In this document: piece after piece, positions 1,471 to 64,000 of the stretch | Layout of the letters: every line of letters begins with the position of its first letter | Numbering within the stretch: position 1 is the stretch's first letter | From: Felis catus | Lineage: Eukaryota | Assembly: GCF_018350175.1 (NCBI RefSeq) | Contig: NC_058382.1 | Coordinates: 58,716,001 to 58,780,000 of the forward strand | Length of the DNA stretch: 64,000 nt | Reading direction: 5' to 3' | The notes under the pieces: model-generated | Databases searched by the model: none | Seen by the model: only the letters and a program-made list of their open reading frames with translations | Told to the model about the DNA's origin: nothing | Position numbers and translations under genes: made by a program

Positions 1471-1860
1471 GTTCTGAGACACCTGACTTCACTTCTAAAC
1501 ACCTTCATCTGGTCCATTAGCTACCACACTGGGAGACAGCAACTGCGGGGTGTTATGGGAACGGAGAGGCCGGCTCTCCGTCTGTGAGAGCATCAATTCC
1601 TTTTGCAGAGCTCAGGCATGGGGACAGGGGTCACCCCTCTGAACAGCTATCAATCGTGGCTGCCTGTGGGCAATTTGCTGGAGAGGCCAGCCCGGGGAAA
1701 CTGGAGCCGGAGGAAGGGGGCACAGAGACTTCTCGTGAGATTGTAGGTGGGAAGGATGGCTTGCAAAGTCACCCCCTGTGGCTGAAAGAAGCTTGCTGTA
1801 AGGAGCCTGCCCCTTTTAAAAAGCAAACACAAGAAATGGACCCTTTGAAGGGTCCGAACC

Positions 1861-2340
1861 CATGACATTCGGCGCATTCACGGCATCGTGCAGTCGCCAC
1901 CTCTGTGTGGTCCCCCGACATCTCCGTCGTCCCCAAAGACACCAGGCCCGTTCGCACTCCCCGTTCTCCGTAGGCCGGCCTGGAACCGCACATCCGCCCT
2001 CCGTCTCCCTCACTTGCCTCTTTGGGATATTTCACGGAAGCGGGGCCCCACAGCTGGCCAGCCTTTGGGTCTCCCTGCCCCCCGCATCACCGTTCCCAGC
2101 TGCTGCCTGCCGTGCCCGGGGCTCGTACGGCTGGGCGATAGGCCACCGCCTGGACGGACCGCGGTCCGTCCACCCAGTCCCCTGCTGACGGACACTTGCA
2201 CCGTTCGCAGCTTTGGGTTACGTCCGCAGCAGTGGGATTGCGGATCTCACGGACACTCCGGATTTAACTTTCTGAGGAGCTGTCGGACGGTTTTCCACAG
2301 CCCCGCCCCTTCCACGTTCCCACCAGCAGGGCAGGGGGGG
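1861..2340 (-). mobile_element. L1MA/L1MB-type 3' end, strongly GC-shifted
   Basis: Collinear L1M landmarks, e.g. tttaactttctgaggagctgtcggacggttttccacagc and ttcccaccagcag. Confidence 0.8.
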
Positions 2341-3133
2341 TCCGATCTGTGTACAGAGGGAGAGATAACGGCTTATTCCAGCAGCATCTTCCCGAGGCGC
2401 CGTCCTGCCTTCTTGGTCCACGTAACAATCCCAGCGTGGCACTCCCGTGCTGTCACCTGGCCGGCGGTCTATTTGAGACCCTTGGCAGGCCACAGCCCCC
2501 TTAACGTTCTGATGCCTCCACCTCCTGGCTATGCCTCCACCCCTCCCGCCTCAGTTTCCTCCCTGAGGAAACGACGCAGTTACGTCTAGTTGACTGGCTA
2601 CCCCAAGCCCCGTGCCAGGCGTGTGGTGGCGCCTCGTAATGACGAGCCGTGAGGTCCCATCCAGGAGGCACGTGGGGGGCCGTCAGAGGCCGACCGAGGG
2701 ACCCCCGAGCCTGTGCGGTTTCACCAGCTCACTACGTTGCCATCGATAATGCGAAACAGACGATTAGAACCACATCTGAGCACGACTGACAAGTGCCTCT
2801 AATACATACAGAAATGGCCAGAGGGGGTGGGTCTGAGCCAGTCTGGTTCCAGTGTCCCTGTGACAGAGAGGATGGTGTGGCCGTCAGAGGGGACCGGATG
2901 CCCCACCTCTGTGGCCTAGCAGGCTCCGTATAAAACCTTCAAGGGCTAAATAAATGCAGTAATTTACAGAGAAGAGGCCTCCCAGGGCTGCCTCTGGCAC
3001 TGAGGCCTGAGGACCAGGCCAGCATCTGTCTTCTCGGGTGACGTGTTCCTGTCAACAGTCACCCTAGCGGGAACAGGACCCAGCAAGACAGTGTGGCAGC
3101 CTCCCTTCCGCTCTGTGTTCTTCTTGGTGGTGA

Positions 3134-8558: not shown

Positions 8559-10629
8559 AAACCCCTTCAATTTAAAACCCAGTTCGAGGGGCTGTTTATT
8601 TCCAGCCCAGCGAGACCCGGACTGATCCCGTGTCCCTAACCGGGCTATTACCGGTTACCCGCTGTCCACGCACCTGACGCCCACTGGAAGGTGGGGTTCC
8701 GCGCCCAGCTTACACCTCGGAGGAGACACTCCCCGCTGGAACACGGGCTCGGGGAGCCCAGGGGCTTCGTCTTCCCTTTCCTGGAATTCCTGCTGAGATC
8801 GTGGCAGAGTCGCCCCTAGTCGTACGAAAGGGTCCAGGGAGGTGGATCCCCCAGGGGTAACGTTTCGCAAAACGGCCGTTCGAAGGTGCCAGCGGCGACT
8901 CGATGCTGACACCACCCACCTGGTCACTCACATCTCTGTCAGATCTACCTGCGGTCGTGCGCGCGTGTGAGCTCACGGGCGTGCACGGCGTGGGTCGTGC
9001 CGCCTCCGCACGCGGTCGTGGCACGGCACGTTTCCCTCAGCACCAGGAAGCTGTTAATCTGATTTCTCTGGAATTGGTATTCTAACCTGATTTCTTCAAG
9101 AGCCTCTTAAGACCTTATTTTGTGACGACTTTCCTCCCACTGCCAGAACCGTGCCTGGCACGTGACAGAGACTCAAACGCCTGTACCGGCTGAGCATCGG
9201 GTGCGTTTCGTCCTCAGGACCCCCCGTTTGCGCGGACGGGGAAGCGGGGCTCAGGGCTGGGCTCACGCTCGGGGTCTTGAGGCCCCGGGGGCCTCTGGAT
9301 GCAGGGGGTCCCGGGCACCCCTGTTCAACCTCGGCGTCTTCCCCTCCGTCTGCGGGTCGTCCTTCCCACAGCTGTGCCGGGCGGCCGTCCTCCGAGCCCG
9401 TCCAAGGCCGATAAAAAGTGCCGGGCAGGACGCGGCGGAGCCTGGAGCCTGGCCGGCCTGATAACTGGCTTCGCTTTGATGTTTTTCAAGTTCAGAACGG
9501 ACCCCGGGCCCCTTGGCCAGCGTTGCATGCTTGTTTATTTTTGTCGCCGTGTAGGCTTGTGTGATTTCCCCTTCCCAAGTGGGACAGCTATCATTATTGC
9601 TGTCATTACCCTATTGGAAACGTTGCTAAACGCACTCTCCCGCTCCACCCCACCCCTCCTTCCAAGCGCCTGAGGAAGACCACCCACGACGTCAGACCTT
9701 CCCTCCATTTAATTTTAGTCTCAGGATGTAAGTTTGCAATTTCATCACAATTAAAAAAAAAAAAAAAACCCAAAACCGAAACGAGACTGGTTTTCCCACC
9801 CCAGACCTGCGGACCGTCCCTCCCTGACAGGCGGGCTCAGGAGCTGCCCGAGAGTCCCCAAGAACGGCGAGCTTTCAGGGCACGGGGACCCGGGAACGGT
9901 TTCGCAAGAAAACACGGAATACTGTCCTAAGTTACGTTCCAAATGCGTTAGATCAGAAAAAGACCGCTAAGCTGTGTTCTTCTCATAAATACCAGTGAAT
10001 TAGTCAGAGGGCACGGGGAGTGCAGGGCACAGGAGAACCCACCACTTCCTCTCTGAGAGCACCCTGGGTCGGAATGTTCTAGATATTCAGGACACAGCGG
10101 CAAAGACCCTCACGATAACTCTGAGATCCCCTTGCAGGGTTTCCCGGCACGCTGCCCACCTGAACACAAGGCTTGTGTTTTATTTTCTTCCTTTCTTACT
10201 TATTCTTTGTCCTCATAAGTCCACGTCTGAAACACACGCGGAGTCCGTGTGCACTCGCGCACGCACGCACGCACACACGGGCAAGCACACACCCCCTGGG
10301 CGTTTCCCTCCCTCTGCTCCCAGCAGATTTCATTTCTCAGCCTCTTGGAAAATGTTGGAGTGGGGTTTGACCCGAATGAGATTCAAATGGGTGATGTGGC
10401 CCAGGGATCTCGCAGGCTCCCACAACCCAGGTTTCTTTTCTTTGTCATATTCCCTGTCTCCTTTTACGGTTTGTTTCTTCCTTCGGAGCAGTAAAATAAA
10501 TGTTTTCTCATCTACCTTCTGGGAGCACACTGGGGGAGAGGGATAAGCCTGTGTGTCAACCAACACCTACAGCCACAGTTTGGGGGTGAAAATGTTTTAG
10601 TTAAAGGAAAGGCCGTAGAAAGGAGTCTC

Positions 10630-11150
10630 AATCTATAAAACAATGCTTTAGCTCATGTTCAGTGAAGGAAAACCAAATTCTAACCACAGTGAAGCTGTTT
10701 TTCCAGTATCTCAGGGACGCTAGGTGTGACCACGCATGCTGCGCCCTACACAACCTGGGGGGGGCACCGTTCACCTGGGCGCAGTGCTGCGCCGTGGACT
10801 AAATGAGCAATGTGTGTGCTGGAGTGAGGGTCAGGGGCTCTCACACGTAGCTGGCTGCAGCGGATGCAAGACAAGCTGTTTGGAAAGACATATGACGGTC
10901 ACTACCAAAATTTCGCATGCACTTTCTCCGGGACCCTGCAATTCCACTCTTTGGGGGGTTGCCCCACCATGAGAGGGCACGTGCACTTTCAGAAGCCTGC
11001 AGGCAATGGGTGTGGGAGCAGAAGCTTGGACACAACCTAGACGTTCATGCACGGGGGGTGAGTCAGTGAACTGGGATCTATCCCGAAAAGGACGGGTGCA
11101 GCCTTCAGAATAAAGAGGCAGATTCACAAAGGCAGTGGTCCCTGGGACAT
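10630..11150 (+). mobile_element. L1ME-type ORF2-end/3'UTR fragment
   Basis: ttggaaagacatatg...gaccctgcaattccactc...ttggacacaacctagacgttca matches L1M landmarks as recalled. Confidence 0.7.
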
Positions 11151-11814: not shown

Positions 11815-12770
11815 TTTTGATGAAAATTTGGAAACATGCATAAAGGTTGAAGAGTTGTACAGTGAACATCGATGTGCCTACCCTCTCAGCTCTGAAGTCA
11901 GCATGTTGCTGTGCTTGGTTTCCCATCCATCCATCCATCCATCCATCCATCCATCCATCCATCCATCCAACCACCTATCCATGCATCCATCCTTCCATCC
12001 AACCATCCATCCATCCATCCGTCCGTCCGTCCATCCGTCCATCCATCCATCCATCTGTTCGTTCGTCCATCCATCCACCAATCCATCCATCCATCCATCC
12101 ATCCATCCATCCATCCATCCATCCACCCATCTGTCCCTCCATCCATCCATCTGTCCATCCATCCATCCAACCATCTATCTATCTGTCCATCTATCCATCC
12201 AACCATCCATCCATCCATCCATCCATCCATCCATCCATCCATCCAACCATCCATCTATCTCTCCATCCATCCATCTATCCATCCATCCATCCATCCATCC
12301 ATCCATCCATCCAACCACCTATCCATGCATCCATCCTTCCATCCGTCCGTCCGTCCATCCGTCCATCTGTTTGTCCATCCATCCATGCATCCATCCACCC
12401 ATCTGTCCATCCATCCATCCATCCAACCATCCATCTATCTGTCCATCTATCCATCCATCCATCCATCCATCCATCCATCCAACCATCCATCTATCTCTCC
12501 ATCCATCTCTCCATCCATCCATCCGTCCATCCGTCCGTCCGTCCATCCATCCGTTCGTCCATCCATCCACCCAACCATCCATCTCTCCGTCCATCTATCC
12601 ATCCATCCGTCCGTCTATCTGTCCATCTATCCATCCAACCATCCATCCAACCATCCATCCATCTCTCCATCCATCTATCCATCCATCCATCTGTCCGTCC
12701 ATCCCTCCTTTCAAAGTAAACTGCAGATATTAGCGTGCTTCCTCCCAGTTTCTTTTGCATGAATATCAAT
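11815..12770 (-). mobile_element. L1MC-type 3' end split by a (CATC)n array
   Basis: gatgaaaatttggaaacatgcataaagg...gtgaacatc before the array and tttcaaagtaaactgcagatatt after it. Confidence 0.6.
11922..12704. repeat. Complex (CATC)n array, about 780 bp
   Basis: CATC units with CGTC/TATC/AACC/TCTC variants. Confidence 0.98.
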
Positions 12771-15644: not shown

Positions 15645-16000
15645 CCCACCCATCCATCCACCTGTCTGTCCGTCCATCCATCCATCCATCCATCCATCCA
15701 CCTGTCTGTCCATCCATCCATCCATCTCTTCTCCATCCATCCATCCATCCATCCATCCATCCATCCATCCATCCATTCATCCATCCACCCATCTATCCAT
15801 CCATCCATCCATCCATCCATCCATCCATCCATCCATCCACCTGTCCATCCATCCATCCATCCATCCACCCATCCATCCATCCATCCATCCATCCATCCAT
15901 CCATCCATCCATCCACCCATCCATCCACCCATCCACCCATCCACCCACCCACCTATCCATCCATCCATCCATCTGTCTATTCATCCATCTATCCATCCAT
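15645..16000. repeat. Complex (CATC)n array, about 355 bp
   Basis: CATC/CACC units. Confidence 0.98.
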
Positions 16001-18884: not shown

Positions 18885-19400
18885 CCCTTCTTTCTTTCCT
18901 TCCATCTACCCATCTATCCATCCATCCATCCACTTACCCATCCATCCACCCACCCACCCATCCATCCATCCACCCAGTTATCCATCCACCCATCCATCCA
19001 TCCACCCACCAATCCATCCATCCATCCATCCATCCATCCATCCATCCATCCATCCACCCACCCACCCACCAATCCATCCACCCACCCACCAATCCATCCA
19101 TCCATCCATCCACCCATCCACTTACCCATCCATCCACCCAATCATCCATCCATCCATCTATTCATCCACCCACCCATCCACCCACCCATCCATCCATCCA
19201 TCATCCATCCATCCATCCATCCATCCATCCATCCATCCATCCATCCACATACCCATCCATCCACCCATTTATCCATCCATCCATCTATCTATCCATCCAC
19301 CCACCCATCCACCTACCCATCCATCCATCCATCCATCCATCCATCCATCCATCCATCCATCCATCCATCCTGTCATCCTTCTGTCCATTCATCCATCCTT
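18885..19400. repeat. Complex (CATC/CACC)n array, about 500 bp
   Basis: Read directly; preceded by L1MC-like gaaattccaaacatacaggaaagt. Confidence 0.98.
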
Positions 19401-19422: not shown

Positions 19423-19865
19423 CTTTTTAATAGACTATTTCTTAGAATAGTTTTGGATTTACAGAAAAATTGAGAAGATAGTGGAGAGTTCCCTTACACT
19501 CACACCCTGTTTCCCTATTGTTAACATCTTGCATTAGTATAGTACATTTGCTACAATCAATGAACCAATATTGATGTACTATTACATCATTATTAATTAG
19601 AGTCCATACTTTACTCATATTTTCTTAGTTTTCATGTAGTGTTTTGTTTTCATTTTTCTGTTCCAGGATCCCATCCAGGATCACATGACAGTTATCAACG
19701 TCTCCTTAGGGTCCTCTTGGCTGGGACGGTTACTCAAACTTTCCTTGTTTCAGGTGACCTTGACAGTTTTGAGGAATACTGGTCAGGTATGTTGTACAAT
19801 GTGCCTCTAGCAGGATTTTTCTGGTGTTTGCTGATGATTAGACTTGGGTTCATGTCATTTTTTTT
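19423..19865 (-). mobile_element. L1MC-type 3' end that kept its AT richness
   Basis: tagttttggatttacagaaaaattgag...gtacatttgctacaatcaatgaaccaatattgat...gaccttgacagttttgaggaatactggtcaggta. Confidence 0.88.
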
Positions 19866-20125: not shown

Positions 20126-20524
20126 CCCCAGTGGAGACCACCTGTTGTTCTCGATGTTACAGACGTGCAGCACAGGTGATAGTTACCATAACACCTGGGG
20201 GGGCCGGTTCCTTTCAACAGTGGGCCAGCTGACTGGATGCAACCCCCTTCTCATACCCAGCCACCCTCAGATGGAGGGGCTCAGGGCCTAGGGGCAGCTG
20301 GGGAGCCAGGGGATGCTGGTGCTCCTGAGGAAGGAGTCCTGCCTGGCTCTGACCTGTAGAGCCCTAATATTGGAGGGAGGAACACACTTAATCCATGGGC
20401 CTATTTTATTATCGCTACAAATACTCTCTTATTGGCACGAGGAGATGAGCCCGGGGCAGAAGAGCAGGCCCTCCTGGGACGTACGTCCTCCCAGCCCCAG
20501 GGGGACCCGTTCCCCCCACGAGCT

Positions 20525-20655
20525 TCGCTATCCCCATCCTACAGACAAGGACACTGAAGCGTCCACAGCAAGCCCCGCCCCCAGAACCCCTCAGCTAGAA
20601 GGTGATGGGGCCCAGATTCAGGGTGTCGGGCTCCGGAACCTGCTCCCTAACCCCG
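20525..20655 (-). mobile_element. MIR fragment
   Basis: tatccccatcctacagacaaggacactgaagc...cagctagaaggtgatggggcccagattca. Confidence 0.65.
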
Positions 20656-20849
20656 GCACCCCCAGTCACCCCGGGTCAAGCTCCTTAGCCTGGGATCTGT
20701 GGGCCCCTTTGGGCGTCACCGGATGGGCCACGAGACCCCACAGTTTGCTTGCAGAACATCATACGTACATTTTGCGGGGCGAGGACCCACAGCATTTTGG
20801 AGAGGCCCACGCTCTCACCGAGGAGCCCTCCTATACCCCTCACTTTCCA

Positions 20850-22100
20850 GAGCGACTACGGTGTGGATCGGGCCTCGGGTCCCCGCAGCCAGCCCGCCGT
20901 TCTCCCTCCTACCGGTCGGTGCACACATCTATTGCTACGCAATGCGGGGCGCCCCACTGTTCTGCGCGAAGCACACACCGAAAGGTGTCCGGTCCTACGT
21001 GTGGACCACCGGGAACGCCCCCGCGGAGCCCCCGCCCTCATCAGGGAGGACGGCGGCGCGGGCGCCCCAGAAGCCCCTTCCCGTCCGCAGCCCCGCTCCT
21101 GCAAAGTCGGGGGCTCTCCCGGCCCCCCGCGTCCTGGAGGCTTCCACCTGCTGGGAACGTCCCGTGGGCGGCGGCTTCTGGGCTCCTCACCACTGAGATG
21201 CGCCCCTGGCAGGGCTCGAGTCCGTCTCCACGGCCTTGGGCCGCTCCGCCGAGGACACCGGCCCACGCTCCCTACCCCTTGTCCCGCGGGGGAGACCCTC
21301 GGGCGGCCTTCACCTTGGGGCCGCAGGAGCCGGGCGCGCCTGCGCATTCGCGGACGCGCGCACGCTTGTCTTCCGGTCACGTGTCCCGGGGACGCAGAAT
21401 CGCCGCGCCGCCTGACAGGCCTGGCGGGGCCGACGTTAGCGTCGCCTTCCGCAGGGCAAGTCCACACGCCCACTCGCAGCTTCCCACCTCCCCGGCGACG
21501 TTTACTTTGAGCCAGGCCGGCGGGTGGGGGTGTAACCTGCGTTTTAAAATATGAAACTACCTTCCTGCCCTTTTCCTTGCTCCTTCAAGGTGCTTTCTTT
21601 TCCTCGCTGCCATCCCCCGGCCCCTCGGCACGCCAAGCCAGAGGTCAGGGCCGTGGTGGACATGTGACTGTGAACCGCGGTCCTCGTGGGGTGCGGGGGC
21701 GGTTGGGGGCACCGGCCGAGAAGGAGCCCAGGGGCCGTGCCCCCTCCCTTCTCACCGAGGCTGCGTGTGTGGTCTTAAGGGGCAAACACGCACCGGTTCT
21801 GATCTATATACGGTCTGGGGTGGGAGAGCCGGCCTGCCCGCCTGGACGGTTTGGTTTTGGGGAGACCGCGGCGGGGGCCGCTGACAGTGCTGACACACGC
21901 CTTGACGGCTTTGCCCTTGCACCACGCACTTCTGTCTGTAACGGTCGAGCCACCAGGGCTGGTGGCATCGCGGCTGAGCATCCCAGGCCACTGCCCGTGG
22001 CTCCCGGGAGCCAGTGGCAGCCGTGGCGGCCGGTACCCCTAGTGTGCTGGAAATCTGGTCAGATCTCGACCCTGCACGTGACCCCTGTGCGTCCATTAGG
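20850..22100. promoter_or_regulatory. CpG-island-like region
   Basis: Visibly very high GC and CpG density; not computed, and no exon identified. Confidence 0.5.
20960..21555 (-). mobile_element. L1MC/L1MD/L1ME-type 3' end converted to CpG-rich sequence
   Basis: Ordered L1M landmarks: gcgccccagaagcccc, gtcctggaggcttccacctgctgggaacgtc, gaccctcgggcggccttcaccttggggcc, gtccacacgcccactcgcagc. Confidence 0.65.
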
Positions 22101-22706
22101 AACAGAGAGCCGGCTTGCTGTAGGCACGACCCTCTCCCTGGGTGGCCGGGGAATCGTGGCGTGTGGACCCCTCCCCCCAGGCCACCCACATCTAGGGGGA
22201 GGTGCGGCAGGGGGCACACGGTCTCAGCTGTCCACGATGGTACCTGGCCACAGTCCCTCAGAGGCAGCTAGCAGGCCACACCCCGTGTCCGGCCCCTGCC
22301 CTGCCCTGCAGGCTGTTTCCAGCCCTCCACGCCCACACCTGGGCAGACCCAGAGGTTCCCTGCCTCTGCACTCCCGGCCCTCATTCCAGAGTTTTGGGAC
22401 TGAGCAAGTTACTCGTGGAGGGAGCTCCGGCCGGCTGAGCTCCAAGAAGGCACCGCTTCCGCTCAAAATGCTTCCCGCCCTCCTCCTCCACCCGGAGTGT
22501 GGGAGTGGCGGTCACACCTGACGTGCGCTGCCAGAAGCCTGCCCGGGGGTCAGAGGAACAGATAAGACTTCCTGTCCCCTTTGCTGCAAATGGAGGAAAT
22601 TCGGGGCTGGAAACCTACAGGGTTTGGAGTTGGCCGTGGCTGCCTGCCCGGCCCGCTTGGCTGTGCTGCTCAGGCTTGCTGCCCCACTTCTCCCAAAGGT
22701 GCCCGC

Positions 22707-23276
22707 CACACACACACCACAGCACACACGCACACGTGTGCACACGCCATACGCATGCACGTGCAAACACGCACACGCATGCACACACGACGCATGCACA
22801 CACGTGCACATGCCATATACATGCACGCATATACACACGCACGCACACGCACGCACACACGCCCGCGTGTGCACACGCCATATGCATGCACGTGCAAACA
22901 CGCACATGCATGCACACACCACACACGCATGCACACACATGTGCACACGCCATACACATGCATGTGCAAACACGCCATACACAAACACACATGCACACAC
23001 CATACACATGCATGCATACATACACACGCACACACGCACACGTGTGCACATGCCATATGCACGCACACAAACACATGCACACACCACACACATGCACACA
23101 CAAACACGCACACACGTGCACACGCCATGTGCATGCATGCACAAACACACACGTGTGCACACACCACACACACATGCATGCACAAACACATACACAAACG
23201 CATGCACACGCCATACACACCCCACACAGCATACACACCACACATGCAGATGCATACACACACACGCACACATGCC
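22707..23276. repeat. Complex CA-rich alternating purine/pyrimidine array
   Basis: Recurring cacacgccatac, catgcacgtgcaaacacgcac and gtgtgcacac blocks. Confidence 0.95.
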
Positions 23277-23501
23277 ATGGCCCATTTGCAGCAAGTTCCA
23301 ATCACCACCGAAGGCAGCTGGGCCCTTCCTTACGGAACACAGGTGTCCTGTGGTGACATGTCAGCTGACTCTAACTTGAGAGACAGTGTGTGGGGGGGAG
23401 GGGTCCCAGGGTCGGTTCCGTGTGCCCAAGAACAAACCCGCCGGATCCAGCACTCGCCGCAAGTCACTAAGGGAATGTATAGTTTACACGTGTTTATGAG
23501 G

Positions 23502-23855
23502 AAGGTGACCATTTGTTATCTCGGTCAGGACGCTTTTTTTTTTTTTTTTTTAATTTTTTTTTTTTTAATTTTTTTTTTTCAACGTTTATTTATTTTTGGG
23601 ACAGAGAGAGACAGAGCATGAACGGGGAGGGGCAGAGAGAGAGGGAGACACAGAATCGGAAACAGGCTCCAGGCTCTGAGCCATCAGCCCAGAGCCCGAC
23701 GCGGGGCTCGAACTCCCGGACCACGAGATCGTGACCTGGCTGAAGTCGGACGCTTAACCGACTGCGCCACCCAGGCGCCCCAGGACGCTTTTGAGAATAA
23801 AAAGGTGCCGTAGCCACAGTGCCAGGACCGAGGGGCAACTTGGGCTGCCCCCCTG
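23502..23855. mobile_element. MER81-like hAT-Blackjack element split by a Can-SINE
   Basis: aggtgaccatttgttatc..caggacgcttttgagaataaaaaggtgcc...gccaggac once the SINE is removed. Confidence 0.6.
23534..23781 (-). mobile_element. Young full-length Can-SINE
   Basis: Long T-tail, near-consensus body; TSD aggacgctttt on both sides. Confidence 0.98.
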
Positions 23856-24867
23856 TATTTGTGGGGATGGGCGATGGCGTGTGGGGGACACGGCCCAGCC
23901 TGGGAGCCGGCGGCCTGGGGCACACCCCTGGGCTCTGCAGGTGCTCGGCCCGGGGCCGGGGCCAGGCGTCCTGCGTGCAGCCCCTTCAACCAGAGCCTCA
24001 GAGCCGCCTCTCCCCGTCGGCAGGCGGGAAGGAGCCCCCCGGAGACGGTTCAGGGGGACGTCCACCTCCCTGCACGCTCTCCTTGTCACAACGAAGGATT
24101 TCAGACCGCATCTACAACTCCACAGATACACACTGAAAGCATAAAAATTAGGGCAGTCCCAAGTCACATTTTCTGCCAGACGTGGGTTTTGTAAACCCTG
24201 CTGTTGAGACCAGCCGAGGCCGCCACATTTCTCCCTTGTCACCGAATGTGCTGGTCTCACCCGGGGAGGAGGGACACAGCTTTTGCACAGCGCGCCTGGC
24301 CAGTGGCTCCGCATGGCCCTCCCTGTCCTGGGGGAAACGGTCTGCCGTCCTCACGGGAAGACCTCCATCTGCCATTTCTCCCAGGGGTCGTTTGATTGTT
24401 GCTGTTTTGTGGGAGGGAGAACGTGAGCCCTACGTCTGGTCATTCATTTCAAACAACGCGAGGACAGAGAGAGACCTCTTGTGCACGTTTCTATCTAATG
24501 AACCAACTCCAACATTGCCAGAATGAAAGGTGTTTTACTCACAAGACCCCGAATGAAGATGCTCTCACTGACCCCATTCAAATTAGCGATCGGGTTTGAG
24601 CTGTTACAAAAATCCTTGTCGTTCATTTTGGTTTGTGCCGTGTCTGGGTTTGAGCCACTCTGGAGACCCTTTTACCGCGCTCTGGCTTGTGCTGTGTCCA
24701 CATCCATAGTAACCCTAACAATGTATTCTGGCAAGTATGATCCATTGTCCCTGAGATGACGACGTACATTTAATGGGCGTAAATATGCAAACAGGTGAAG
24801 TATCCGTGTCGGGTGACGTTACATTAAAATAGGCTTTCCATAGTGGCTTTGCCTACCAAAAGTTTGC

Positions 24868-59000: not shown

Positions 59001-59914
59001 GAAGGCGCTCGGCGGACGAGGGGCATGGAGGGAAGCTGTGGCTTGGTGAGTTTTTCTTCTGGCATTTACAGCCCTGAAAAATGATTGCAGCTTCCTCTGG
59101 CCGCCGGAGCTGGAGCCTGAAGGAGTGACCTTTAAGGAGAGTCTGTTTACTCCGTCTTCGGGCAGAGGCCCTTGCGTGAGCTCTGCAAAGCGGCGCCCCG
59201 CCTTGGCGCTGACCCCGGGGCCCGCGTCCAGACCCACCAGTTTGGAACAAGCAGGGGACGAGCCGGGGGCTGGTGAGGGGCTGCTCCGGGGTTGGGGTGA
59301 GGGGCGCGTTCCGGGAGGTCAGGGTCAGCCCCTGCCCGCTGGGCGCCCGGGTCTGGCCCCTGGCCTGGAACAGCCTGCGAGGCGGGTGTGTCGTGACCTG
59401 CCATTCCATGCTTCGTACGCTCTGGAAACCCTGTCCCGGGGCCAGCTCCAAGCTCCCTCACTTTTTAGACAAAACAAGAAGTAATTAGCCTGGACGGGGA
59501 TACTCCTTGGTCTTTGTGGACCACACCGCAAATCAGGTTTGAATCTCGATCCCCTGAACTCTCACACCAAAAGGTACACGGAGGGAGAAACGGAAAACCA
59601 GGGAGGCCAGGCAGCGGTCGGAACCCTCGCGGAGCTCCCCGAAACGACGCCGGCCACGGCCTTTGCAGCGGCCAGGGAGACTGGAATCTGACTCCGGCGC
59701 ACGGCTGCTTAAACGTGAAAGAAATAAGCACGTGTAACGGGATCTGCGCGTTTCCAAAAGTTTGAATTAAACTTGAAGCCTTGGATTTACGTTTTCAAAG
59801 ATCGTTTTGAAACCTTCCGACTTACAACACGATCGCTGCTAATTTTCTCTTCATACCCTGATTCAACAGTCTCTGTTCCAGAGAGACGGTGCTTTACTAG
59901 AATCCTCCGGTTTC

Positions 59915-60510
59915 GGTTATAAATATAATATTCTTTGCTTGGAGGAAATCTAGGAGAGTTTTAAAAAGGAAAATTAAATCGACATGCAGTCCCGCTGCTC
60001 GGAAGTGCCCCCGGTCAGCACGGCAGCAAACTGCCTCCTGTCTGGCGCACGTGTGTGCACATGTGTGTGTGCGTGTGTGCACACTTGTGTGCAAGCGTGC
60101 GTACACGCGCACGTACATGTATGTGTGCATGTGCAAACGTTTGCACGCGCACACACGTGTTTCTGCACACACGCACGTGTGCAGGTGCGCGCGTGCACGC
60201 ACACGTGTATATGGGTGTGTACACACTTGTGCGCAAAGCATTGTGCACGTGCGTGCGCGTGTGTATGTGTGCGCGTGCAAACGTTTGCACGCGTGTGCAT
60301 GTGTGTGCACACGTGCGTGTCTCATACGACGCATCCTTACACAAAGCCAGCGTCAGGAGTTTTGTATCACGCTGTCCTCCCTTGTCAGCATCTCATAAGA
60401 ACGTCCCCGCATCATTAAAGGACCCGTGCAAACGTCGTTTTAACGCGTGTCCAATATGGCAACTTATGGATGTGCCATAATTTATTTTACTATTCCTCTA
60501 TGATAAAAAA
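59915..60510 (-). mobile_element. L1ME-type 3' end hosting a TG-rich array
   Basis: ttataaatataatattc...aaaaaggaaaattaaatc before and tatggatgtgccataatttattttactattcctctatgat after the array. Confidence 0.65.
60045..60320. repeat. Complex TG/CG alternating purine/pyrimidine array
   Basis: Read directly; internal duplication with about 144-bp period. Confidence 0.95.
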
Positions 60511-62161
60511 ATGTTTTAAAGTGTGCAAACTTCCTTTCCCAGTGGAAAAAAATAGAATAACTGCCCTGGAATGGTTATTTGTGATTTCCTGAAATTAGGT
60601 CAAAAATATTACACATTTTTTGTTACCCCAAGTACCTACTTCCTGGTGGATTCCAAATACCGACCCGCTAGGCGACCAGAGGAAGGGGAGTGGCCAGACC
60701 CTTTCCTTGTGACACTGGGGTGGGCGTGCCATGGGGTGTGCTGAGCCTCGTCCCTCCCAGGACGCTGTGAGTCATGAGCTAGGCCGAGAACGATAAGGAA
60801 AGGCGTGAGGCCTGTGTCTGGGGGCGGGTGTTCCCAGGCTCCACCCGAAATTTCAGGGGTCCCTGAGCCCTGAGCCCTCGCTGCGCCCCTGGAGAATTCC
60901 CAGGCCCGAGGGTTTAATTAATGAGGATCCCCTCTGACCCAGATCCAAAATTATCTCAGATCCCTTCAATCCATAATTCTGGGAAGATCATAGAATGTTT
61001 TGTTTGTTTGTTTTGGTTTTTGTTGTTTTAGCACTCGCCGTTGACATTTAACAGGGAAAACTTTTTGCAAACATTGAAAAACTCTGAACTTCTCTCTGCA
61101 ACTGAAGACATCGCAAAGGAAGGACTTACAAAATAAAAAGAGTGAAACTGAGACAATCTCAAGAGTTGTGTCAATCTGCAACCAATACATACATATTCAG
61201 CGCTCTGAAGAGTTGCAAAATGAACATTGCCTTAGTCATTGGGGAACTAAAATAGTCACGTGTTTATCCCGCCTGGTCTTGTGTGCGGTAAGGTCTTTGA
61301 CGGAATTAGGACTGACTCAGTCCTTTTCCTCCGTGAAACGTCTGTGCAACGTGCTCTCAGACGCTCCCGGTCTTTGGTTGTCAGTTTTCTCCCTTCTTAG
61401 TGCAACGCCACGCCTCAGCGCCCGGGTTCCGTGGACAACCAGGACGCGCATGTCCTTGGGGGGTTCACCAAAGTCCTAAAAGCTTCAGGACCCTCATCCA
61501 TGAAACGGAACGCTGCCTCTTGGCTGCTGTGACCCGGGGAGGAAACACGGCGGGGAAACCACTCAACACGTCACTTAGGATCAAGCACGTTGTTGGTCTT
61601 CTTGGAAGATCCTGAGGACCAGACACGACAGGGATGCTTGGTGGCTGGGGGCTTCGGGTGGAACGGATGGATGAAGCGTGACCCGTTCTCACTGCTAAGC
61701 GTTTGGGACTAATCTGGGCTATAATTTCATATTGTAAATGGAATCAATTGCGCATAAAAGGGGGAGGATCCAGGTATCTGAGACAGCTCACAAATCCGGG
61801 GGGTGTGGGTGACGTGGAGGGAGCTTTCACGAGCAGGTTCTGTTTGCCAACCTCACCAGCAGGTTTTGACGTCGTGCTTGGTAAAAGGCGCCCTGCGAAG
61901 CAGGCGTGTCATTAACGAATAGTAACGGCGAAGCATGGGCTGGCGTGACCATCGCTCAGCGTGGGGAGAGCGCGCACTTACCCAGAGCACCTCCCGCAGC
62001 CCTCCCGTGCTGGGGCGCCGCCTGCCCAGCTCGGCAGGTGCGGGAACCGGCACGGGACGGACGCAGAGCTTGTCCCAGGCGCCCCGGGCTCAAACCAGGC
62101 GGTCCGGCCCCAGGGTCCACGCACAGTCTCTCTGCGGCCAGCCTACAAGGTCATTCCCTTC

Positions 62162-62373: not shown

Positions 62374-64000
62374 GTCATTCCCTTCTAGGGGGGATTTATC
62401 CATCTATTTTCTCCTCTCAAATTAAAAAAACCAACACTTAATCTCTTAATGGAGGCTTACGGAATTCAAACGGGGCAGCTCTTTCCCGGAAATAGCGGAT
62501 GATAAGGAAGAGAACAAGGACGATACGGACAAAGCACGACAGATTCATGACTGATGCCGCCCCTGGGGGAGGAGTCTATTCGAACCCAGCGACCCAGGGG
62601 GCAGAGGCACGGCTCCCGTGGACGTGGACGGTTGCTCTGGGCGGCTTAGCAACAGACGGGAGCGCCTGCCTCAGCAGCGGGCGGCGACACCGTGTGGGGC
62701 TGGGGCTTTCCACCTGCAGTCACGCTCTGCGGGGCCAAGCTGGTCCTGCCCCTTCGGCCCTGCACCAGCGCCGTGAGCACCCCAGCACCCCCCTCCCCCC
62801 CAGGCCGGGCCTAACGGCAGCACCGTGGGGAGAGACACAACAGGTGAGTATTGTCACCTGGGGAGAGGGGCGGGTGGAATGGCCCTCTGCAAAGAGGGGA
62901 CGGCGGATGCCTGCTCCGAGGCTCAGAGCGAGGGACGCCTGGCGTGAGGCTTTGGCCGCACATGCTATTGGCCCGTGTGCCCCAAGGGGCCGCCAGCAGG
63001 CGCTCCCAGGTGGGCCCCTGGCACGAGGTCTGTCAGGACGGGCGTCATGCTTAAAAGAGGCAGACAGACGTAGGGGGGCTCCCGGTTCTGTTGCCCTGCA
63101 GCCGCGTGACCGGGGCCTCCTCGTCCTCCTCCGTAAACGGGCACGTAGAGGCCCCCGGCCACTGGGTTGCCGGGTGGGCGCCAGGAGATGACCCCTCTCG
63201 AGCGCATCCCCCTGCCTGGCACCCAGCAGCCACGCCAGTCCGCGCCGGCCGGCATTGTAAGTGTCACGTGCCCGGAGGCCTGATCACAATCACCTCGCGC
63301 CACAGAAACGCAGAACTCCGGACAGGGCAGGGATGAGCAACCCCGGGCTCGGGCCTCGACCCTGGGGTAACTGGAGACAAAAGTGTGGGATCAGACTTGC
63401 AATCAAAGAGGGAGAGCGTTTGCAAACGAGCAGGTTACGGTTAACATAAACTTTGGAAACCATGAGGAAATTAAGGATATCACTTTAAATTAAATATCTT
63501 AAGTAGACATGTACTTTAAATGTGATAAGACAGCTATGGTACATTAAGTCAATGCCGATTGGTAATTAAAAGCGGGTTTCTCCAGGCTTAGCTGCCCGGG
63601 AGGAGAGATCAACGTCTTTGTACAGGAGCTGACAGTCGTCGGAAGTATGGTTTTAATCATCCCCGGCCCCACTTGCTCTCTGCTTGGCAATAATAATGAT
63701 TTGTTCTCGTAATGAAATAATATTCATTTACCGCAAACGCACTGCGCACACGGGGCACGATACCATCGGTGTCGCGCCCTGATTAGGACTCCGCTACACG
63801 ATGATTTCACGGAATTCCAGAATATCAGAGCGGCAGCGGGGGGAGGTCGATTCGGGTCCCGGCCCTTCATCCCTTCATTTCACACGTTTGACCAAGGGAT
63901 TGCGTGGTTCAGGTTGCACCTGGCCGGAGCTTCCGGGAGGTTCCAGGGAGAGCCGAGCAGGGGTGTTTCCGGGAAGCTGCTTGTCACGCTGTGTCCTCTC

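What the first reader, a model, noticed from the sequence alone, without database searches (positions are those of the whole stretch)
20960..21555. A CpG island apparently built de novo from an AT-rich L1 fossil
Seen: the densest CpG stretch still carries ordered L1M 3' landmarks. At 21294-21322, gaccctcgggcggccttcaccttggggcc aligns with the recalled consensus gacatttgggttgtttccagtttggggct at 18 of 29 positions, and 9 of the 11 differences are A/T to G/C. Inference: GC-biased gene conversion created a lineage-specific CpG-island-like sequence and erased stop codons, which explains the overlapping 413-, 253- and 205-aa ORFs. This is potential raw material for a new promoter or de novo ORF.
Basis: partly seen in the sequence, partly recalled or inferred. 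Interest (0 to 1): 0.72.

Follow-up and report, generated by a model that had tools for sequence, protein, structure and literature searches.

The report
CpG island overwritten on old L1
A CpG-rich patch in cat-like DNA sits on a dead, once AT-rich L1 retrotransposon whose A/T bases were largely replaced by G/C, most likely by recombination-driven GC-biased gene conversion, which is a known process; its long reading frames are by-products and no function is shown.

Summary
20960-21555 is the CpG-densest stretch of the window (GC 0.71, CpG o/e 0.96). Plain nhmmer with real L1 pieces misses it. A GC-shift-aware profile finds the 3' end of L1 ORF2 on the minus strand at about 21207-21423: 37.9 bits, 0 of 3000 shuffles. 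A purine/pyrimidine-only test finds the same register weakly (5-8 of 300). In that core 74 of 116 A/T sites are now G/C against 7 of 71 the other way, and none of 31 CpGs is CpG in the profile. L1 origin of the other ~380 bases is not shown. Three more GC-shifted L1 relics lie in this window. The ORFs exist, but stop density matches composition and relatives are frameshifted. No RNA reads were laid, without a positive control. Best reading: an orphan CpG island made by GC-biased gene conversion, a known kind; cat has 77,199 orphan islands (PMC11170920). The scan noted the same thing on other DNA three times. Lineage specificity, methylation and promoter activity are untested.

The parts
20960..21555 (.). 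CpG-island-like peak (GC 0.71, 72 CpG, o/e 0.96), inside a broader stretch 20471-22190 that passes Takai-Jones thresholds
21207..21423 (-). Tested L1 core: DNA matching the 3' end of L1 ORF2 (about human ORF2p residues 1165-1240, my conversion), GC 0.36 in the profile and 0.75 now
21294..21322 (-).
21424..21555 (-). Possible upstream continuation of the L1 relic; not significant
   Evidence: 196 and 203 of 1000 shuffles reach the score
20930..21206 (-). Possible end of ORF2 and 3'UTR of the relic; looks so by eye (recalled), not significant with available references
   Evidence: 591-749 of 1000; best UTR reference 24 of 500
21336..21383 (.). Promoter-type motif cluster: NRF1-like site, then an ETS site abutting a USF-type E-box (motif patterns recalled)
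   Evidence: NRF1-like P 0.006, USF P 0.016, number of motif kinds P 0.15; 11 motifs tried
20313..21554 (+). 413-aa ATG ORF, Pro/Arg/Gly-rich, antisense to L1; by-product
20749..21510 (+). 253-aa ORF (TTG start, no ATG)
20856..21473 (-). 205-aa ORF (GTG start), on the L1 sense strand
2040..2355 (-). Comparator: second L1 ORF2 3' relic, GC-shifted less far (81 of 155 W>S, 10 of 105 S>W), found by plain nhmmer
   Evidence: (E 1.6e-9)
23828..24174 (-). Comparator: third L1 ORF2 relic, GC 0.74 in its aligned part, found by the GC-aware and purine/pyrimidine models
10620..11060 (+). Comparator: fourth L1 ORF2 relic, mildly shifted (GC 0.57 against 0.39)
   Evidence: (E 0.0015)
19430..19860 (.). Comparator: AT-rich block 1.1 kb from the island (GC 0.36, CpG o/e 0.14), old-L1-like by eye (recalled, not tested); shows the shift is local

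Best explanation
An old L1 inserted here on the minus strand and died (shown for a core of about 220 bases of ORF2 3' end; the rest inferred). The site then lay in a long-lived, kilobase-scale recombination hotspot, where GC-biased gene conversion fixed A/T to G/C changes at about two thirds of A/T sites while G/C sites were kept (pattern shown; cause inferred). GC rose from about 0.36 to 0.75. CpGs arose as a by-product and AT-rich stop codons fell about threefold, leaving long Pro/Arg/Gly ORFs with no coding role. Partial germline hypomethylation probably helps keep the CpGs (inferred, weak). The shift was largely complete before the split from a relative about 4% diverged, and the few polarised recent changes are losses of G/C. 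It is an orphan CpG island of the gBGC class. It may open chromatin as such islands can, but no function is shown.
For: GC-aware profile hits: 34.9 bits with 1, 0, 0 of 1000 shuffles; 37.9 bits with 0 of 3000 and reversed profiles at 18-21 bits. Among 112 GC-rich tile-strands the target ranks behind only the clear relic at 2040-2355. A composition-blind purine/pyrimidine test gives 5-8 of 300, starting at the same register in 3 of 4 settings. Substitution table: 74 of 116 W>S (56 of them transitions), 7 of 71 S>W, 4 W>W; 31 CpGs now, 0 in the profile. The same bias appears in other relics to different degrees, with an AT-rich block 1.1 kb away, as expected of patchy hotspots. CpG transitions run about 3.3 times other transitions against P0122, between unmethylated (k=1, P 0.018) and strongly methylated (k=15, P 0.017). 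Literature: many cat orphan islands overlap phastBias gBGC tracts (PMC11170920, passages); dog gained 35,464 islands, attributed to gBGC (PMC4350167, passages); W>S bias is seen in felid lineages (PMC5155386, passages).
Against: Plain nhmmer, tblastn and HOXD70 miss the target. The GC-aware setting was picked as best of 6; 3 of 6 settings were not clean (7, 30 and 60 of 300), and the no-shift setting fails with the protein-derived profile (156 of 300). The W>S counts come from an alignment that rewards W>S, so they overstate the bias. The references are young L1s, not the true old ancestor. The flanks are not significant. There is no outgroup alignment, so direction rests on L1 being AT-rich. 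Among variants polarised with P0122 there are 5 S>W, 1 S>S and 0 W>S (my reading), so there is no sign of gBGC acting now, though this is too few to test. PMC11161765 (abstract, section 8) reports that some felids show a recombination deficit at PRDM9-independent hotspots.
Confidence: 0.72

Rival explanations
1. An exapted L1 that became an unmethylated promoter or enhancer first; selection for GC-rich binding sites plus freedom from CpG deamination made the island, with gBGC secondary.
For: Cluster of NRF1-like, ETS and USF-type motifs at 21336-21383; the only two NRF1-like matches in 64 kb are in the target (P 0.006). CpG decay is lower than for strongly methylated DNA.
Against: The number of motif kinds is not above shuffles (P 0.15) and 11 motifs were tried. 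W>S is spread over the whole core and mostly outside motifs. From general knowledge, lack of methylation alone does not lift GC to 0.75. Sister relics without such motifs are shifted too. Divergence from P0122 in the island is not reduced (21 differences in about 197 codons against 12 in about 172 upstream). No exon or Rfam gene was found nearby.
Confidence: 0.12
2. A region-wide drift to high GC (a GC-rich, probably subtelomeric domain) with no discrete hotspot; the target is just the upper tail.
For: The whole window has GC 0.568 and CpG o/e 0.58, with 27 island-like stretches. All four L1 ORF2 relics found are shifted upward. Island density rises towards telomeres (PMC2441465, passages).
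Against: The relics differ widely (GC 0.57, 0.60, 0.74, 0.75 in aligned parts), and a block at GC 0.36 lies 1.1 kb away. The region-wide process would itself most likely be gBGC, so this differs in scale rather than in kind. The chromosomal position is unknown.
Confidence: 0.08
3. Not L1-derived: an ancestral GC-rich element whose resemblance to L1 is produced by a permissive scoring model.
For: Standard searches fail. Model settings were tuned. The flanks are not significant. Target against the second relic gave only 7 and 69 of 300.
Against: 0 of 3000 shuffles with a second profile at a setting carried over from the first; reversed profiles are at null level; rank among 112 GC-rich real tiles. 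The same register comes out of the GC-blind test. The signal persists with the landmark scrambled.
Confidence: 0.06
4. The 413-aa ORF is a functioning de novo protein gene.
For: It is longer than most shuffles: 2 of 1000 for the local region and 3 of 100 window-wide. One allele or very close relative keeps all 413 codons (P0121).
Against: P0123-P0125 shift frame at about 20713, and P0122 shifts three times inside the island yet stays open. Codon-position GC is flat. There is no Pfam hit. No shorter homolog was found among 676 candidates. The region was chosen after the fact as the most GC-rich.
Confidence: 0.02

Closest known systems
Orphan CpG islands overlapping gBGC tracts in cat, dog, pig and horse (Kocher et al. 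2024, PMC11170920; passages and reviewer file read, figures not seen)
   Same: Non-promoter CpG-rich stretch in the species with the most such islands (77,199 in cat); gBGC named as a source.
   Different: That study masked repeats and could only note that unrecognised ancient transposons may hide in its sets. Here the L1 substrate is identified and serves as a record of the ancestral state. No chromatin data here.
GC peaks and gained CpG islands at dog recombination hotspots (Berglund et al., PMC4350167; passages read)
   Same: Sharp local GC peak, W>S excess, new island by gBGC, reduced CpG mutability.
   Different: Dog lacks PRDM9, whereas that paper states the cat assembly has a complete PRDM9 frame. 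Recombination rate and methylation are unknown here.
'BGC' class of CpG islands of Cohen, Kenigsberg and Tanay 2011 (seen only as summarised in PMC4121359, passages)
   Same: Island maintained or made by biased conversion rather than by selection; intermediate CpG decay.
   Different: Defined in primates by branch-wise substitution models, which I could not run.
PRDM9-independent hotspots in placental mammals (Joseph et al. 2024, PMC11161765; abstract passages and section 8 read)
   Same: Offers the stable hotspot at hypomethylated DNA needed for so large a shift.
   Different: Some felids show a deficit at such loci in recent branches, so activity here may be old. Not shown for this locus.
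LINE-1 ORF2 3' end (human ORF2p, PDB 8UW3 and 9K6G; DUF1725 label from UniRef)
   Same: The core aligns to the DNA encoding this region.
   Different: About 49% identity at conserved columns, with indels; no protein-level similarity left. Unlike the natural CpG island of the L1 5'UTR (recalled), this island lies on a part that is AT-rich and CpG-poor in the references.

Membership tests
CpG island (sequence definition) | At least 500 bases, GC at least 0.55, CpG o/e at least 0.65 | tested here: met
   596 bases, 0.713, 0.96
CpG island (functional) | Unmethylated in the germ line, with H3K4me3 or open chromatin | tested here: inconclusive
   Indirect only: CpG transition excess about 3.3-fold from 7 of 13 transitions; no methylation or chromatin data
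Orphan CpG island | Not at an annotated promoter or exon | tested here: inconclusive
   No Pfam hit passing a curated cut-off in 69 of 96 long ORFs scanned (27 left out: repeat-derived, or overlapping the target and mostly scanned), no Rfam hit; short exons would be missed and no annotation was available
LINE-1 relic | Significant similarity to L1 by standard profile search | tested here: not met
   No nhmmer hit at E<=20 with a 14-piece young-L1 profile that does find two other relics; Dfam not available
LINE-1 relic | Collinear similarity to L1 ORF2 once base composition is modelled | tested here: met
   (0 of 3000 shuffles); purine/pyrimidine-only 5-8 of 300; holds for 21207-21423 only
LINE-1 relic | 3'UTR and poly(A) end downstream of ORF2 | tested here: inconclusive
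   Best of 11 references 24 of 500 shuffles
L1M subfamilies (L1MA-L1ME) | Diagnostic 3'UTR matching a Dfam L1M model | not testable with these tools
   No Dfam or Repbase library; label recalled
gBGC tract | Cluster of W>S changes far exceeding S>W | tested here: met
   74 of 116 against 7 of 71 relative to an L1 profile; alignment favours this outcome
gBGC tract | Excess shown on a defined branch with outgroups, and elevated W<->W or S<->S rate or high recombination | not testable with these tools
   No ortholog beyond one close relative seen through its predicted protein; no recombination map
gBGC tract | Ongoing fixation bias in polymorphism | tested here: inconclusive
   5 S>W, 1 S>S, 0 W>S among polarised variants; too few, no frequencies
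De novo protein-coding gene | Frame kept among close relatives | tested here: not met
   4 of 5 related predicted proteins carry frameshifts
De novo protein-coding gene | Transcribed and translated | tested here: inconclusive
   0 reads laid from 2 raw RNA runs (1-2% of each read, no positive control)

The most novel reading that the evidence does not exclude
A sizeable share of the cat's unusually many orphan CpG islands are transposon fossils overwritten by gBGC until standard repeat finders no longer see them (2 of 4 L1 ORF2 relics here were missed or barely touched by plain nhmmer). This one has gone a step further: conversion has written an NRF1/ETS/USF module onto L1 ORF2 DNA, giving a working, unmethylated promoter or enhancer with no selected ancestry.
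Probability: 0.12. Interest if true: 0.62.

Novelty: new member of a known kind. Interest (0 to 1): 0.3.

Why it matters
It is a tidy single-locus illustration that a CpG island can be written on AT-rich junk DNA by a neutral recombination bias, with the dead L1 recording the starting state. The practical point is that such relics escape standard repeat detection, so they are counted as unique orphan islands and give spurious long Pro/Arg/Gly ORFs. A GC-shift-aware repeat search could measure how many carnivore islands arose this way. The process itself is established, and nothing here shows a new function.

Tried and rejected
No own genome was held. Self-BLAST of the target gave only a 64% piece against 2045-2123 at E 0.06 and short chance hits. 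Plasmid blastn gave short chance hits; tblastn of an L1 ORF2 protein against plasmids and phages gave none. A motif scan of viral contigs found 0. The metagenome scan found 5 loci, of which L001 was a bacterial chance match and was dropped. HOXD70 pairwise alignment failed for the target with 8 of 8 reference pieces, while the relic at 1790-2400 passed with 4 of 8. Target against that relic was not significant. tblastn and plain nhmmer missed the target. Pfam gave no family for the L1 peptide itself, so identity rests on PDB and UniRef names. Anchored flank and 3'UTR tests were not significant. An uncalibrated tile scan gave many high scores in compositionally mixed tiles; I replaced it by local-shuffle calibration. 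A SINE clock was attempted, but the 12 copies belong to several subfamilies and I drew no counts from it. Read laying: two raw RNA runs gave 0 reads with no positive control, and two contig sets of uncertain kind gave flat, patchy depth with holes over part of the island; neither is a test of expression or chromatin. A search for shorter ORF homologs found none. Direction of the fixed differences from P0122 (10 window-S, 6 window-W, 5 S/S) cannot be set with L1 as outgroup, because CpG decay would revert to the ancestral base. Look-ups of earlier findings by place and by sequence were empty.

Full report
Setting. The window is mammalian non-coding DNA with carnivore-type SINEs (cat-like by recall; the run search names one coded organism). 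It is GC- and CpG-rich throughout: GC 0.568, CpG o/e 0.58, and 27 unmasked stretches passing Takai-Jones thresholds. No Rfam gene was found. No Pfam family passed its cut-off in 69 of 96 ORFs of at least 135 codons; the 27 left out were repeat-derived or overlapped the target, most of the latter scanned. No own genome was held, so host gene and chromosomal position are unknown.

The observation. 20960-21555 has GC 0.713, 72 CpG and o/e 0.96, the densest in the window. The landmark lies at 21294-21322, and my hand count against the 29-mer in the finding agrees with 18 of 29 and 9 of 11. Such a match is expected about 0.011 times in 596 bases of this composition, so it is a lead, not proof. The three ORFs exist, but two start at TTG and GTG.

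References. I fetched real L1 DNA from public contigs and L1 ORF2 C-terminal proteins. P0024 matches human LINE-1 ORF2p residues 1070-1274 at E 9e-101. Ten of them match the landmark at 13-17 of 29.

Standard tests fail. HOXD70 alignment, tblastn and nhmmer with a 14-piece profile do not find the target. The same nhmmer run finds relics at 2346-2206 (E 1.6e-9) and 10817-11048 (E 0.0015).

Composition-aware tests succeed for a core. I evolved the profile under a model with high equilibrium GC and scored against the target's own composition. Of six settings, three gave 0 of 300 shuffles and three gave 7, 30 and 60. At the best setting the minus strand scores 34.9 bits, columns 293-522 mapping nearly collinearly on 21423-21207. 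1, 0 and 0 of 1000 shuffles of three kinds reach that score, and the tile ranks 4th of 362. A second profile, back-translated from 156 proteins, gives the same register. At the carried-over setting it scores 37.9 bits with 0 of 3000 shuffles; reversed profiles score 18-21, and among 112 GC-rich tile-strands only the clear relic ranks higher. Scrambling the landmark leaves 28-30 bits against nulls of 19-20. A purine/pyrimidine-only test that ignores GC gives 5-8 of 300, starting at the same register in 3 of 4 settings. The flanks and the presumed 3'UTR are not significant. I put L1 origin of the core at about 0.9; for the remaining 380 bases it is plausible by eye (recalled) and unproven.

The shift. 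At conserved columns, 74 of 116 A/T sites are now G/C (56 by transition), 7 of 71 G/C sites are A/T, and 4 changes are W to W. GC went from 0.36 to 0.75 and CpG from 0 to 31. The alignment rewards this pattern, so the ratio is an upper estimate. Other relics show the same direction at different strength: 2040-2355 (81 of 155 against 10 of 105), 23828-24174 (GC 0.74) and 10620-11060 (GC 0.57). A block 1.1 kb away is still at GC 0.36. That patchiness fits kilobase-scale hotspots within a GC-rich domain.

Timing and methylation. Predicted proteins from related DNA give an indirect view. P0122 differs at 32 of 368 codons (about 4% in DNA, my estimate) and is GC-rich across the island, so the shift predates that split. 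Inside the island there are 21 single-base differences: 7 CpG transitions, 6 other transitions, 5 G/C swaps and 3 other transversions (one sits at a frameshift junction). Per visible site CpG transitions run about 3.3 times other transitions; a factor of 1 (P 0.018) and of 15 (P 0.017) fit poorly, and 10 is marginal (P 0.07). This suggests partial protection, from hypomethylation or from gBGC itself. Variants I could polarise are 5 S>W, 1 S>S and 0 W>S, which mutation input alone would give.

ORFs. The target has 17 stop triplets, equal to its shuffles (16.5) and a third of L1 references (49-54). The 413-codon frame is somewhat long for chance: 2 of 1000 locally and 3 of 100 window-wide, in a region picked for being the most GC-rich. 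But it begins about 650 bases outside the island and has flat codon-position GC. P0121 keeps it whole; P0123-P0125 leave its frame at about 20713, and P0122 changes frame three times inside the island and still reads through. That is how stop-poor non-coding DNA behaves.

Promoter. An NRF1-like site, an ETS site and a USF-type E-box cluster at 21336-21383. Single-motif P values are 0.006 and 0.016 among 11 motifs tried, and the joint count of kinds is P 0.15. Two raw RNA runs gave 0 reads from 12.9 million records each, with no positive control, and two contig sets gave no usable depth signal. The question is open.

Mechanism. Shown: L1 ORF2 substrate for the core, near one-way W>S change, new CpGs, stop loss by composition, frameshifted ORF. 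Inferred: gBGC at a long-lived hotspot, partial hypomethylation, an old rather than current episode. From general knowledge, absence of methylation cannot by itself raise GC to 0.75, and selection would not be expected to change two thirds of A/T sites across several unrelated relics.

What is known. [quoted passage not shown] Their reviewer reply says repeats were masked and decayed transposons may hide in the sets. Berglund et al. describe island gain by gBGC in dog (PMC4350167, passages). A 'BGC' island class is summarised in PMC4121359 (passages). Abascal et al. report W>S bias in felid lineages (PMC5155386, passages). Joseph et al. report PRDM9-independent hotspots in most mammals but a deficit in some felids (PMC11161765). 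Five searches of the open library listed no paper whose title or abstract start describes an island traced to an overwritten L1 ORF2; subscription journals are not covered. Three earlier notes of this scan report the same thing in other genomes; I did not check them, but one led me to PMC4350167.

Verdict. It is a new member of a known kind, one of several in this window. The ORFs are by-products, and lineage specificity and function are untested. Interest 0.3.

Noticed in passing
window 1830-2355 (-): Clear L1 ORF2 3' relic with the same W>S bias, itself inside an island-like stretch (GC 0.64, CpG o/e 0.83) and overlapped by a 246-codon open frame.
   Followed up: yes
window 23828-24174 (-): Another strongly GC-shifted L1 ORF2 relic, 2.3 kb from the target; plain nhmmer touched only a 32-base piece next to it at E 9.
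   Followed up: partly
window 10620-11060 (+): Mildly shifted L1 ORF2 relic, found by tblastn and nhmmer.
   Followed up: partly
window 20689-23379 (+): One reading frame has only two internal stops over about 2.7 kb (273, 336 and 285 codons); the last part is a CA-rich repeat, and indels at 21859, 22293 and 22564 occur in other individuals.
   Followed up: partly
window 11923-12708, 15646-16000, 18897-19398: Three long, decayed CCAT arrays within 8 kb, all on the same strand; two appear to sit inside old L1-like blocks (by eye).
   Followed up: no
window 22707-23272 and 60050-60300: Long imperfect CA/TG arrays rich in CACG and TGCA units that pass CpG-island thresholds on their own.
   Followed up: no
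window 59680-59980, 61050-61300, 63400-63800: AT-richer, non-repetitive blocks amid GC-rich DNA that look like conserved non-coding elements (by eye only).
   Followed up: no
L005:1-1086: An old L1 3' piece from another mammal, split by SINEs, that also looks GC-shifted (whole contig GC 0.545, CpG o/e 0.5).
   Followed up: partly
L006-L016: Mammalian L1 DNA occurs as contaminant contigs in nine prokaryote genome records and in two viral contigs; a 'Helicobacter pylori hypothetical protein' is L1 ORF2-like (P0079).
   Followed up: no
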